Notes under the pieces: generated by a model | What the model saw: only the letters and a program-made list of their open reading frames with translations | The model's database searches: none | Told to the model about the DNA's origin: nothing | Shown here: positions 9,803 to 12,646 of the stretch, in pieces | How the letters are laid out: each line of letters begins with the position of its first letter | How positions within the stretch are numbered: the stretch's first letter is position 1 | Assembly (NCBI GenBank): GCA_037446635.1 | Contig: JBBIIG010000090.1 | Coordinates: forward strand, 1 to 12,646 | Length of the DNA: 12,646 bases | Reading direction: 5' to 3' | Source of the DNA: a bacterium | GTDB lineage: Bacteria > Zhuqueibacterota > Zhuqueibacteria > Oceanimicrobiales > Oceanimicrobiaceae | Translations under genes and position numbers: made by a program

Positions 9803-10606
9803 ATGAAACTTCTCTTCTCCGAGTACAAATCCGATTACAGCCACTACATTTTCCCCTACGCTATCTGGGCGATTCCGGAAAAAGGCGAAACCCCGGGGAT
9901 GATCTTCAATCGCGGCTTTTTGCCGGCGTCGCGGGAATTCGCCCATTTCTATTTATGCCGGCAGGTGCGAGTCGATCTCTCGCAATTCAGCCCCTCCTCC
10001 GAAAACCGCCGCATCATGCGCAAGTGTGAAGATATCCGGTTCCGGCTGGTTCCGCGCCCCCAGTTTGATTACACTCCGGACTGGCGGGAATTCTGCAAGC
10101 ACTACGCCGATATCAAATTCGGCAAAGACGTGATGAGCTACCAGCGCCTCGATTCCCTGTTCAACTCAAAAATCGTCACCCATCTTTTGTTGTTTACCGA
10201 TGGCGCCAGCAAAGACGACGTCGGAATTGTGACGCTCTATCTCGAAAAGAAAACCATGGCTTACTATTATTATTCTTTTTATGATTTGAACTACTACGAT
10301 CGCAACCTCGGCATGTTCATGATGACGTCCGCGGTGGATTTTTTCGCCAACGAAAAATTCGGCTACGTTTACCTGGGCTCCTGTTACTCCCGCAATGCCA
10401 TGTATAAAACGCAATTTTCCGGCGCCGAATTTTTTAACGGCCGCCACTGGTCGCAGGATTTGAAGGAGTTGAAATATCTGATCCAGCGCGACCAAAATCC
10501 AGTGACCCAGCATTTGATCGAAACCGAGGAGTACCGCGAAAAATTTTACGAGGGCCAACTTGCGAACATTGCCGATGCCAGCGACTTCACGATTCGGTTG
10601 GAATAG
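9803..10606 (+). CDS. ATE/Bpt-like aminoacyl-tRNA-protein transferase (GNAT-like fold)
   Basis: QVRVDLSQFSPSSENRRIMRK resembles the ATE N-domain end; YSFYDLNYYDRNLGMFMM, YVYLGSCYSRNAMYKTQF and EFFNGRHW resemble the ATE C-domain. Confidence 0.7.
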   Translation: MKLLFSEYKSDYSHYIFPYAIWAIPEKGETPGMIFNRGFLPASREFAHFYLCRQVRVDLSQFSPSSENRRIMRKCEDIRFRLVPRPQFDYTPDWREFCKHYADIKFGKDVMSYQRLDSLFNSKIVTHLLLFTDGASKDDVGIVTLYLEKKTMAYYYYSFYDLNYYDRNLGMFMMTSAVDFFANEKFGYVYLGSCYSRNAMYKTQFSGAEFFNGRHWSQDLKELKYLIQRDQNPVTQHLIETEEYREKFYEGQLANIADASDFTIRLE

Positions 10607-10616
10607 TGGCGAAAGA

Positions 10617-12335
10617 GTGCGTGAACAGGTAGGGTTACCTAAAAGGTCAGGCTTCTTGTCATGCCCGAATGCTTTTATCGGGCATCCAGTACGAGACCGC
10701 AGAAGATTTCCGCCAAAAGCATGCGGGAATGACAGCCGCCCGAGGATTTTTTTTGACAGCCCCCTCTTTCTTGCATTCATCGTCGATCTAATTTTCGTTT
10801 CTCTCCTTTTTCCGCAATCCCAAAACTTGGCAGTCGATCACTGGGCCTACTCCTTTCTCGATCGCCTCGAGACGCGCGGACTGTTTGCCAGCGAAACCTT
10901 CAGCGCCCGCCCTTTTTCCCGCGAGGCGGTTGGGCAGATTCTCGTTCAAATTCATAAAAAGATTGAGAACGATCCGCGCTTGCTGTCTGAAGCCGAGCGC
11001 CGCCTGTTCGAGCAGCTCAAAGGCGAATTTTATGAAGAAGTGGAACGCGCCGATTCAACGATTGTGATTGCCAAAAAAGATCGCGAGCGCCATCTGTTCA
11101 CCTGGCGCAGCCCGCTGGTCGATGTGCGCGGCGACGGCTTGCTGGGCAATCAAACGAAATTGGAATCGAAACGCGAGGTGGACAATACGGTCGCGAACTC
11201 AGTGAGCTACGTTGGATTATCTTTGCGGGTGGATATCAAAAAAAGTCTGGCCATTTTTGCCGAGGAACGCACCTTTTTTCTCAGCGAAACCGATAGTTTT
11301 TCAAATACGATTTTTAACCCGGGGTTGGGCCTGCCGGTGACGAGCGAGGCGCTGATTGATGTTGCGGTCACGGATAACATCTCAGCGTATGTGATTTTTC
11401 GAACACCGTGGCTGGATATTCAGGCGGGCCGCGATTTGATCGACTGGGGGCCGGGGTTTCGCGGCAATCTCCTGCTGTCCGGGAATTCCAACTACTATGA
11501 TCTTTTCAAATTCATGTTTCGATTCAAGAAATTCAATTTCGAATCGTTCCACGGGTTTTTGAATTCCGACCGCGCCAAATATTTGGCCGGCCACCGGCTG
11601 GAAATTCGGCTGTCTCGCAGCTTCTATTTTGCGATCTCAGAAACCGTAGTTTATGGCGATCGCGACGTGGAGTTTCTCTACTTCAATCCCTTTGTCCCCA
11701 TCATGTCAGCGGAGCGCCATCTCGGCAACCAGGACAACAACATGATCAGCTTTGACGCCACGCTGCTTCTCAAAAATCGCCTGCAGCTTTACGGCCAGAT
11801 TTTGTTGGACGATTTCAGTTTCGCCAAAAATATTTTTCACAACTTCGTTAACAAGTGGGGGGTTTTGGCAGGCGGATTGTGGGTGGATCCGTTTGGAATG
11901 AAAAACGCCGAGTTCCGTTTCGAGCTGACGCGCATCCAGCCCTTCGTTTACACGCATTTCAAAGAGATCAACACTTACACCAATTATAACAACGTCATTG
12001 GCCATTGGCTTGGTCCGGATTCCGATGATTTATATTTTGAGTTGGCGAAACAGGCGCACAAAAATCTACGTTTGGCGGTTTCGTGGGAACAGCGGCGAAG
12101 AGGTGAAGGCAACGATTTGACAAATAACGAGCCGCCGCCGGACAACCGCATCGATTTTCTCAGCGGCGTGGTGGAACGCAACCGCTACTACGGGTTTTCG
12201 GCGCAGTGGCAATTCATTCGTGACGGCTTTTTGGGTGTGGGCTACCACTACATCCAATCAAAAAATCTGCAGCGCCGCCAAGACGTGAACCAGAACAATC
12301 ACCGGCTGTTCATCAATTTTTCGCTGAATCATTGA
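10617..12335 (+). CDS. Capsule assembly Wzi-family outer-membrane protein with an in-frame MITE in its N-terminus
   Basis: Probable GTG start at 10617, 10 nt after the upstream stop. Motifs DHWAYSFLDRLETRG, RPFSRE, AGRDLIDWGPGFRGNLLLSGN, GHRLE, YFNPF, DNNMISFD, YGQILLDDF and IGHWLGPDSD. Beta-strand-like C-terminus. Confidence 0.85.
   Translation: MREQVGLPKRSGFLSCPNAFIGHPVRDRRRFPPKACGNDSRPRIFFDSPLFLAFIVDLIFVSLLFPQSQNLAVDHWAYSFLDRLETRGLFASETFSARPFSREAVGQILVQIHKKIENDPRLLSEAERRLFEQLKGEFYEEVERADSTIVIAKKDRERHLFTWRSPLVDVRGDGLLGNQTKLESKREVDNTVANSVSYVGLSLRVDIKKSLAIFAEERTFFLSETDSFSNTIFNPGLGLPVTSEALIDVAVTDNISAYVIFRTPWLDIQAGRDLIDWGPGFRGNLLLSGNSNYYDLFKFMFRFKKFNFESFHGFLNSDRAKYLAGHRLEIRLSRSFYFAISETVVYGDRDVEFLYFNPFVPIMSAERHLGNQDNNMISFDATLLLKNRLQLYGQILLDDFSFAKNIFHNFVNKWGVLAGGLWVDPFGMKNAEFRFELTRIQPFVYTHFKEINTYTNYNNVIGHWLGPDSDDLYFELAKQAHKNLRLAVSWEQRRRGEGNDLTNNEPPPDNRIDFLSGVVERNRYYGFSAQWQFIRDGFLGVGYHYIQSKNLQRRQDVNQNNHRLFINFSLNH
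10631..10763. mobile_element. 133-bp MITE-like element, copy 2 (intragenic, left TIR degenerate)
   Basis: Ungapped alignment to 2388-2520: identical tgtcatgcccgaatgcttttatcgggcatcca, near-identical ccgccaaaa.catgcgggaatgaca, right end ttttttttgacagcccc, left end decayed to agggttacctaaaagg. Confidence 0.85.
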
Positions 12336-12411
12336 CAAGACTCTTTTACGGCTAACGCCGGCGCCGGCGGCTCTTTGTCGAGGTTATTGGAGAGTCTCAC
12401 CTAAAGAGCAT

Positions 12412-12450
12412 TTGACATCAAATTTAAAAATCATTATATTCCCCTCGCCC
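12412..12450 (+). promoter_or_regulatory. Strong sigma70 promoter with a GC-rich discriminator (stable-RNA type), copy 1
   Basis: TTGACA (12412-12417), 17-bp spacer, TATATT (12435-12440), then CCCCTCGCCC, directly upstream of the tRNA. Confidence 0.85.
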
Positions 12451-12461
12451 AAAAGCGCTAA

Positions 12462-12554
12462 GGAGGGCTAGTCCTAATTGGTAAGGCAGCGGTCTTGTCC
12501 GCGCAGCGGATCCGCTGAGGCGGAAAAACCGCGGGGAGTAATCCCGTGCCTCCA
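12462..12554 (+). tRNA. tRNA-Ser(UGA)-derived gene: 27-nt insert in the anticodon, T-arm missing (probable pseudogene)
   Basis: Acceptor 5' strand GGAGGGC, then TA, D-arm GTCCTAATTGGTAAGGC, anticodon stem GCGGT/ACCGC with loop CTTG[27 nt]AAA, and long variable arm GGGA-GTAA-TCCC. GTG is then followed directly by CCTCCA, with no GTTCRA T-arm. Confidence 0.8.
12498..12524. mobile_element. 27-nt palindromic insert (two TCCGC-N3/4-GCGGA hairpins)
   Basis: Sequence tccgc-gca-gcgga + tccgc-tgag-gcgga. Removing it restores the canonical 7-nt loop CTTGAAA. Confidence 0.75.
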
Positions 12555-12591
12555 GGTGTTAGCGATCGCGCGTGTCCTTCAAATCCGCAAA

Positions 12592-12646
12592 AGCATTTGA
12601 CATCAAATTTAAAAATCATTATATTCCCCTCGCCCAAAAGCGCTAA
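12592..12646 (+). repeat. Exact 55-bp direct repeat of 12407-12461 (promoter plus tRNA leader), copy 2
   Basis: Identical to 12407-12461 at a 185-bp period. TTGACA at 12597-12602, TATATT at 12620-12625. The window ends exactly where a second tRNA would begin. Confidence 0.9.

What the first reader, a model, noticed from the sequence alone, without database searches (positions are those of the whole stretch)
12462..12554. tRNA-Ser(UGA) anticodon split by a 27-nt double-hairpin micro-element
Seen: the anticodon loop reads CTTG|tccgcgcagcggatccgctgaggcgga|AAA. Precise removal of the 27 nt restores CT-TGA-AA, so the insert lies between anticodon positions 35 and 36, with no target duplication. 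It is two tandem TCCGC-N3/4-GCGGA hairpins that can alternatively fold as one long stem around the palindrome cagcggatccgctg, extending the anticodon stem. Known: characterised bacterial tRNA introns are self-splicing group I introns of hundreds of nt, whereas short protein-spliced introns are archaeal/eukaryotic. I see no clean bulge-helix-bulge here. Inference: this is either a tiny mobile palindrome that inactivated the tRNA or an RNA-level excisable mini-intron of an undescribed type.
Basis: partly seen in the sequence, partly recalled or inferred. Interest (0 to 1): 0.8.

Follow-up and report, generated by a model that had tools for sequence, protein, structure and literature searches.

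The report
Mobile double hairpin in dead tRNA
The 27-base insert is real, but it splits a truncated spare copy of a serine tRNA gene whose intact copy lies on the adjoining contig; it is one of dozens of copies of a tiny two-hairpin DNA element in this genome, recurs at the same anticodon position in broken copies in distant bacteria, and likely spreads with the help of a small neighbouring nuclease rather than being spliced out as an intron.

Summary
Observation confirmed: 27 nt (12498-12524) sit between anticodon positions 35 and 36, with no target duplication. The intron reading is not supported. This copy matches only tRNA nt 1-57 and has no T-arm. An intact tRNA-Ser(UGA) starts contig C94, which overlaps the window end, and is followed by a 78-aa GIY-YIG gene and a second fragment with the identical insert. 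The insert is one of 35 double hairpins in the genome; 16 have exact empty sites, and 8 lie in long ORFs (in-frame extra residues against orthologues in 3 of 3 tested). A same-site insert occurs in 23 other genomes of at least six phyla. All 26 copies are partial, 17 of 23 genomes have a small GIY-YIG gene beside it, and 21 of 23 keep an uninterrupted anticodon. Best reading: a tiny mobile DNA palindrome marking the dead fragments of a tRNA-targeting GIY-YIG cassette; the nuclease's role is inferred, not shown. No RNA data were available. My literature searches found no description of the cassette. This scan noted it before on other genomes and on the sister copy in this genome.

The parts
12404..12461 (+). 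First copy of the tRNA promoter region (sigma-70-like, TTGACA-17-TATATT, 11 of 12 matches)
   Evidence: 57 of 58 nt identical to 12589-12646
12462..12497 (+). tRNA-Ser(UGA) nt 1-36 (acceptor 5' strand, D-arm, anticodon arm up to position 35) of a dead duplicate
   Evidence: identical to nt 1-36 of the intact gene at G000:C94:20-104
12498..12524 (+). 27-nt double-hairpin element, inserted between anticodon positions 35 and 36 without target duplication
   Evidence: one of 35 family members; identical to the copy at C94:372-398
12525..12545 (+). tRNA nt 37-57 (rest of anticodon arm and variable arm), one mismatch; similarity ends here
12546..12588 (+). 43-nt spacer without a T-arm. A CCTCC at its start can pair with the acceptor 5' strand; it is either a remnant after an 18-nt T-arm deletion or chance, and a related strain has other letters there
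   Evidence: loose end at 12543 in run X4; no full-length match elsewhere in the genome
12589..12646 (+). Second promoter copy. Its last 19 nt are the first 19 nt of contig C94, where the intact tRNA-Ser(UGA) (C94:20-104), a GIY-YIG gene (106-342), a second insert-bearing fragment (350-416), tRNA-Ser(GCU) (485-572) and gltX follow

Best explanation
The insert is a 27-bp double-hairpin DNA element sitting in a truncated duplicate of tRNA-Ser(UGA), and it was likely placed there, at DNA level, as part of a selfish cassette built around the small GIY-YIG nuclease gene that follows the intact tRNA. Shown: the copy is partial; the intact gene is next door; the element inserts with no loss or duplication, mostly at T/G^A junctions; it is kept in frame in protein genes; the same site is hit in many phyla, in partial copies mostly beside small GIY-YIG genes. 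Inferred: the nuclease nicks the tRNA gene at or near the anticodon (possibly as folded single-stranded DNA); repair copies part of the host tRNA so that one working gene is always left; the hairpin pair is joined in at the nick as the cassette's end or as a non-autonomous passenger. In this genus it then spread to other sites, partly inside other repeats. The window copy likely arose by a tandem duplication of promoter plus tRNA 5' part, and the two identical inserts likely come from one insertion. The dead copy is probably transcribed but cannot yield a tRNA.
For: Partial copy, no T-arm, no tRNA after removal. Intact Ser(UGA) at C94:20-104, joined by a 19-nt end overlap that is unique to these two ends, in the ancestral Ser(UGA)-Ser(GCU)-gltX order seen in 14 of 19 relatives' loci. 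19 of 19 relatives' loci hold a single intact gene, with no GIY-YIG gene and no duplicate. 35 doublets, control 0; exact empty sites for 16 of 35, against 1 hit in 105 tests that allow a 1-3 nt duplication. In-frame extra residues: +9 aa against 9 of 9 homologues, +16 aa against 9 of 9, and a longer loop in RecC than in 6 of 7. Same-site insert in 23 genuine of 24 genomes returned; 26 of 26 copies partial; GIY-YIG within 200 nt in 17 of 23; uninterrupted anticodon in 21 of 23. In 10 of those 23 genomes the strict doublet pattern has no match outside the Ser(UGA) locus. The fragment is closest to, or tied with, the host's own tRNA in 13 of 14. Nuclease clades partly follow the tRNA target across phyla.
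Against: No nuclease activity or insertion intermediate is shown. The window copy has no GIY-YIG gene directly behind it; 6 of 23 other genomes lack one within 200 nt (two of these at a contig end or an N gap). 73 of 110 loci of this nuclease family have no tRNA within 120 nt. The tree is a quick tree on 78 columns, and the C94 protein does not fall into a supported Ser(UGA) clade. 13 of 23 genomes have doublets elsewhere or unplaced matches, and 33 of 35 copies here are far from the nuclease gene, so another enzyme could move them. The 23 loci were picked by a pattern that requires the insert, so they cannot say how often cassettes lack it. The test for folded targets was weak (19 of 35 junctions unpaired against 38% at random). 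Many of the 35 copies were probably amplified inside larger repeats and are not independent insertions.
Confidence: 0.6

Rival explanations
1. The element is a tiny mobile palindrome moved by something else (a RAYT-type HUH transposase acting in trans, or host repair and template switching). It prefers TTG^AA-like sites and survives only in redundant tRNA fragments; the GIY-YIG cassette merely supplies such fragments.
For: The genome has 4 Y1 matches, 3 over the cut-off. The element sits in several other repeat families and in genes. Insertion without target duplication fits HUH enzymes (own knowledge). Survivor bias is expected, since an insert in the only tRNA gene would be lethal.
Against: [quoted passage not shown] In 10 of 23 genomes the doublet is found nowhere but at the Ser(UGA) locus, which random insertion plus survival explains poorly, though these are incomplete assemblies.
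Confidence: 0.3
2. The insert has been kept because it helps the cassette or the host: it breaks up the direct repeat between fragment and intact tRNA and so slows deletion or gene conversion, or it shields the fragment from cutting, or its stem shapes the leader RNA in front of the nuclease gene or tRNA. This is compatible with either mover.
For: Arms are conserved while loops vary across phyla. The insert lies 16-37 nt in front of the nuclease match in the upstream-type cassettes. The window copy has its own promoter.
Against: The same element lies in unrelated repeats and inside ORFs. Arm conservation is equally expected of a mobile substrate. No expression or stability data.
Confidence: 0.25
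3. The insert is an RNA-level mini-intron of a new type, cut out by an unknown nuclease and sealed by RtcB.
For: Exact anticodon position that recurs in many phyla. It can extend the anticodon stem. Two RtcB genes are present. In runs X1 and X3 one short contig runs from the insert into the T-stem, and in X3 another joins tRNA nt 7-36 to the insert; contigs cannot phase these, so a full-length insert-bearing copy in those strains is not excluded. Two of 23 genomes show no uninterrupted anticodon. One 3' fragment (L040) is called as a tRNA by ARAGORN after removal.
Against: Removal gives no tRNA for either copy here. An intact gene is adjacent. No EndA domain was found, while the control rang in 4 archaeal genomes of 14. 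The junction folds as a 4x3 internal loop, not a bulge-helix-bulge. 26 of 26 other copies are partial. The L040 call has only 4 of 7 acceptor-stem positions as Watson-Crick pairs, and an intact gene lies upstream. The two genomes without an intact arm have the locus at a contig end. RtcB rang in 10 of 14 control genomes, so it says little.
Confidence: 0.03
4. The window copy is an assembly artefact made from the repeated promoter and tRNA pieces.
For: The contig breaks in this repeat and the overlap with C94 is only 19 nt. No run holding most of the stretch was listed.
Against: Run X4 has a contig from the promoter through the 5' half into the insert, and others that carry the spacer's middle part in front of a promoter copy. 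The window copy has its own differences from both C94 copies.
Confidence: 0.04

Closest known systems
REP / REPIN elements with RAYT transposases (PMC3116915 and PMC3733652; passages read)
   Same: Small palindromic repeats in many copies, arranged as doublets, inserted into each other and sometimes into genes, and linked to a small nuclease-type gene.
   Different: Two abutting 13-14-nt hairpins with no spacer and no GTAG or CGTC tag seen; not next to the genome's Y1 genes; the linked gene is a GIY-YIG, and the recurrent site is a tRNA anticodon.
Rickettsia palindromic elements (RPE; passage in PMC3733652, original papers not read)
   Same: Palindromes inserted in frame in protein genes.
   Different: Much shorter than RPEs as I recall them; found across many phyla; tied to tRNA fragments and a nuclease gene.
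Small dispersed repeats (SDR) of Nostoc (Elhai et al. 2008; paper not held; named in passing in PMC3116915 and PMC2884548; details recalled)
   Same: About 20-30 nt, precise insertion at preferred short targets, nesting (recalled).
   Different: Different sequence and hosts; I recall no nuclease cassette or tRNA duplication for SDRs, and could not check.
Double-hairpin elements (DHE) of fungal mitochondria (passages in PMC10085805)
   Same: GC-rich, two adjacent hairpins, potentially mobile, near-identical across species, found in intergenic DNA and rRNA genes.
   Different: Mitochondrial; no sequence relation tested; no mover named in the passages read.
Phage T4 SegB, free-standing GIY-YIG homing endonuclease of the tRNA cluster (PMC2330249 abstract; PMC13096335 passages)
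   Same: A GIY-YIG gene among tRNA genes that cuts tRNA-gene DNA and drives its spread or local amplification.
   Different: SegB recognises the T-loop motif in phage DNA. The protein here is 78 aa, closest in PDB to UPF0213 proteins (1zg2, E 3e-5), lies on a bacterial chromosome, and comes with tRNA fragments and a palindrome.
tRNA introns: bacterial group I (PMC3984707, passages) and archaeal bulge-helix-bulge introns (PMC4090602, abstract start)
   Same: An insert in the anticodon loop.
   Different: Too short for a ribozyme, no bulge-helix-bulge, no EndA, and the host copy is not a tRNA.

Membership tests
tRNA intron (any type) | Removal restores a complete tRNA | tested here: not met
   ARAGORN finds nothing after removal at three thresholds; no T-loop
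tRNA intron (any type) | Excised from the RNA, with spliced junction reads | not testable with these tools
   no RNA holder listed
Archaeal/eukaryotic protein-spliced tRNA intron | Bulge-helix-bulge at the exon-intron junctions | tested here: not met
   predicted 4x3 internal loop at the base of one long stem
Archaeal/eukaryotic protein-spliced tRNA intron | EndA splicing endonuclease in the genome | tested here: not met
   PF01974: 0 matches in a 97% complete genome; control rang in 4 of 14
Group I intron | Catalytic RNA core of hundreds of nt | tested here: not met
   27 nt; no Rfam match in the window
REP/REPIN | Short palindrome in many copies, mostly outside genes, often as doublets | tested here: met
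   35 doublets; 8 of 35 in long ORFs that cover 71% of the genome
REP/REPIN | Found in the immediate vicinity of a RAYT gene | tested here: not met
   0 of 4 Y1 matches has the hairpin within 800 nt
REP/REPIN | GTAG or CGTC end tag | tested here: not met
   read by eye from the 35 copies and flanks: ends are TCCGC and GCGGA, flanks vary
RPE-like coding palindromes | In-frame insertion absent from orthologues | tested here: met
   3 of 3 tested, out of 8 ORF-borne copies; RecC is the weakest case
MITE | Target-site duplication | tested here: not met
   exact empty sites for 16 of 35, no duplication
Free-standing GIY-YIG homing endonuclease (Seg type) | GIY-YIG catalytic domain | tested here: met
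   PF01541, E 1.6e-14; the Tyr, Gly, Arg, His and Glu that I recall as catalytic align with 1zg2
Free-standing GIY-YIG homing endonuclease (Seg type) | Site-specific cutting of the empty allele and homing | not testable with these tools
   only indirect: clades partly follow the tRNA target

The most novel reading that the evidence does not exclude
A minimal 78-aa GIY-YIG nuclease and a 26-45-bp double hairpin form an undescribed class of mobile element. The nuclease nicks tRNA genes in their loops and the hairpin pair is the end or substrate it joins in. The cassette spreads between phyla, always regenerating one working tRNA, and the bare hairpin pair moves on its own into repeats and protein genes as one of the smallest mobile DNAs known.
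Probability: 0.35. Interest if true: 0.8.

Novelty: new variant of a known kind. Interest (0 to 1): 0.5.

Why it matters
How REP-like palindromes under 30 bp move without a transposase of their own is an open question; RAYTs account for some families only. Here the tRNA gives base-exact insertion junctions, repeated across phyla, and a named 78-aa candidate enzyme next door, so the question becomes a simple bench test. If the nuclease joins a short hairpin into a defined site with no scar, it is a very small site-directed insertion system. The element also adds 9-residue loops to proteins such as RecC. For annotation, it warns that 'split' bacterial tRNAs of this kind are dead fragments, not introns.

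Tried and rejected
Mini-intron: rejected. RNA evidence: no RNA holder listed; untested. Rfam on the window: 0 matches. Same-site insert in viral contigs: 0. The bare doublet gave 6 viral loci; none lies in an obvious tRNA copy by eye. A phylum search for anticodon stem plus CCGC gave 9 of 167 genomes; apart from G000 only G063 was real, the other 8 sites were chance. L055 was dropped as a chance match (not a tRNA); L039 and L022 are the same DNA and were counted once. RAYT as mover: no neighbouring hairpins. Folded-target test: weak. Length as a multiple of three: 27 nt is the mode inside and outside ORFs, so it does not discriminate. A 22-nt spacer match on C10 lies in apparently coding sequence and is likely chance. 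The sister-genus genome G001 (74% complete) has no assembled Ser(UGA) locus. The automatic boundary finder gave spurious rows and was used only as a cross-check. The careful tree did not finish; the quick tree is reported. Runs X1 and X2 gave the same figures and may be one data set. Literature: nine searches found no description of small GIY-YIG genes with palindrome-split tRNA fragments. The library lacks most subscription papers, the SDR paper was not held, and no supplements were read.

Full report
Observation. The window at 12462-12497 is identical to nt 1-36 of a tRNA-Ser(UGA). A 27-nt insert follows at 12498-12524, after the second anticodon base, and the tRNA resumes with no base lost or repeated. 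The insert is two TCCGC-N-GCGGA hairpins; its predicted fold is one long stem extending the anticodon stem through a 4x3 internal loop. ARAGORN and Rfam find nothing in the window.

The copy is not a whole tRNA. After the insert it follows the intact gene only to nt 57. There is no T-loop motif, and ARAGORN finds no gene after removal of the insert, even at 90% threshold. A CCTCC at 12549-12553 can pair with the 5' acceptor strand. It may be a remnant after an 18-nt T-arm deletion or chance; a related strain has other letters there.

The intact gene is next door. The last 58 nt of the window repeat the promoter region in front of the dead copy (57 of 58 identical; both sigma-70-like, 11 of 12). 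The last 19 nt are the first 19 nt of contig C94, an overlap unique to these two ends. C94 begins with an intact Ser(UGA) (20-104), a 78-aa GIY-YIG gene (106-342; PF01541, E 1.6e-14), a second fragment (tRNA nt 15-48) with the identical insert, Ser(GCU) and gltX. In relatives, 19 of 19 fetched loci hold an intact Ser(UGA), none with a GIY-YIG gene or duplicate, and 14 of 19 have gltX downstream. The C94 gene is thus the orthologue, and the fragments and nuclease are additions. Four public DNA runs of related strains (X1 and X2 may be one data set) hold the insert. X4 has a contig from the promoter into the insert, and X1 has another palindrome of 19 nt in the T-loop in front of its GIY-YIG gene.

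The insert is a genome-wide element. There are 35 doublets (control 0) and 174 single hairpins with 3-4-nt loops (control 9). For 16 of 35 the exact empty site exists elsewhere in the genome; allowing a 1-3-nt duplication gave 1 hit in 105 tests. 27 of 35 junctions are T/G^A. About 25 copies lie inside other repeat families and are not independent events. 8 of 35 lie in ORFs over 250 aa, which cover 71% of the genome. I tested 3 of these 8 against homologues: a carboxypeptidase-regulatory-domain protein has 9 extra residues against 9 of 9; an APH/RapZ-C protein has 16 extra against 9 of 9 (doublet plus a host hairpin); RecC has a longer loop than 6 of 7, while one homologue has an unrelated loop of similar length. 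The 27-nt form was found in 2 of 167 genomes of the phylum, this one and its sister in the genus.

The same site is hit in distant bacteria. A scan of one genome each for 185,579 species returned 24 loci; one is chance, leaving 23 genomes and 26 copies, with inserts of 26-45 nt. Record titles name Desulfobacterota-type lineages, Planctomycetota, Omnitrophota, Elusimicrobia and Verrucomicrobiota; one locus is from the window's own phylum. Two more variants occur in that phylum (G047, G062). None of the 26 copies has both the acceptor 5' strand and the T-arm (five genomes without a local reference were judged by eye). One 3' fragment gives a weak ARAGORN call after removal, with a broken acceptor stem. 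An intact gene lies in the locus in 18 of 23, and an uninterrupted anticodon arm elsewhere in 3 of the other 5; the last two are at contig ends. A small GIY-YIG gene lies within 200 nt in 17 of 23 (one cut by a contig end). The usual order is 5' half with insert, nuclease gene, intact tRNA; four genomes have the fragment directly before the intact gene, like the window. In 10 of 23 the strict doublet pattern has no match outside this locus; others have up to dozens. The fragment is closest to, or tied with, the host's own tRNA in 13 of 14, so it is made or corrected locally.

The nuclease family. Of 110 loci of relatives of the C94 protein (its own included), 37 have a tRNA within 120 nt and 73 do not. 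Many of the tRNA-linked ones that I read by eye have a fragment split by a related palindrome in the D-, anticodon or T-loop region. In a quick tree (115 rows, 78 columns), 8 Ser(UGA)-linked proteins from three phyla form a clade at support 99, and Met-, Pro- and Gln-linked proteins form their own clades; the C94 protein is unresolved. Its nearest solved structures are UPF0213 proteins (1zg2, E 3e-5) and, weakly, SLX1 (E 0.07).

How it most likely works. Shown: a precise DNA-level insertion into redundant tRNA fragments, repeats and ORFs. Inferred (0.6): the small GIY-YIG nicks the tRNA gene, repair duplicates part of it and leaves one working gene, and the hairpin pair is joined in at the nick. 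The main rival (0.3) is another mover plus survivor bias; but none of 4 Y1 matches has the hairpin within 800 nt. The intron reading is at 0.03: no EndA, no bulge-helix-bulge, no tRNA product. Points in its favour are two RtcB genes (common, 10 of 14 controls) and unphased contigs in X1 and X3 that leave a full-length insert-bearing copy open in those strains.

Comparison with what is known. It works like REPINs, RPEs, SDRs and mitochondrial DHEs but fails the REPIN tests of RAYT vicinity and end tag. The nuclease recalls SegB of T4. What I saw of papers: passages of PMC3733652, PMC3116915, PMC2884548, PMC11270868, PMC13096335, PMC3984707 and PMC10085805; abstract and outline of PMC2330249; search listing only for PMC4090602; nothing of Elhai 2008 (recalled). 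PMC11270868 reports GIY-YIG genes in non-intron insertions of CPR rRNA genes and does not mention tRNA or palindromes. Nine searches found no description of this cassette; coverage is limited to open-access papers and preprints, and no supplements were read.

Earlier scan notes. My reading was written down before the first look-up. Fourteen notes describe the cassette family on other genomes (8 shown), and one covers the sister copy on another contig of this genome. They are not independent evidence. The label 'KSB1-type bacterium' comes from such a note and from no call of mine.

Verdict. Real feature, not an intron, and more than plain decay: a dead tRNA fragment marked by a tiny mobile palindrome of an apparently undescribed nuclease-linked family. 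New variant of a known kind; interest 0.5.

Noticed in passing
G000:C6:18095-18150: The only tRNA-Pro(UGG)-type sequence found is a 56-nt 5' fragment that stops in the T-stem, 113 nt upstream of an intact Pro(CGG). No intact Pro(UGG) is called at default ARAGORN settings; four relaxed calls were not examined. It may lie in an assembly gap.
   Followed up: partly
G000:C43:13808, C81:16356, C2:79692: In-frame copies of the element in RecC, a carboxypeptidase-regulatory-domain protein and an APH/RapZ-C protein.
   Followed up: yes
G000:C3:50571 and 51520, C2:4821, C15:59044, C32:20240: Further copies inside ORFs for TamB (two copies), a GH9 glycosidase, an OmpA/LysM protein and the end of polyphosphate kinase; not compared with orthologues.
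   Followed up: no
L001:86 in run X1; L037; L040; L061: Other small palindromes inserted in the T-loop or D-loop of the same kind of tRNA fragment, some copies carrying two inserts.
   Followed up: partly
L070, L105, L118, L124, L130: Close relatives of the nuclease gene lie away from tRNAs, with flanks that look to me like pieces of an integron-integrase gene (recalled likeness, not tested).
   Followed up: no
L098, L100, L102, L110, L117: Another clade of the nuclease is bracketed by an inverted repeat (CCCCGTTAGAG / CTCTAACGGGG) instead of tRNA pieces.
   Followed up: no
G000:C6:91719-91946 and C4:20504-20722: Two other small GIY-YIG genes, each flanked by its own long repeat family.
   Followed up: no
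G000:C29:28227-28562: RAYT-like Y1 gene flanked by tandem copies of a GTGCCAGGCAC-type palindrome.
   Followed up: no
L037 (G167): An Omnitrophota genome of 1.9 Mb holds dozens of doublets, many near contig ends, which suggests that they break assemblies.
   Followed up: no
window 10560-12335: The gene upstream of the promoter matches the capsule assembly Wzi family; it was not found upstream of Ser(UGA) in any of 19 relatives' loci.
   Followed up: partly
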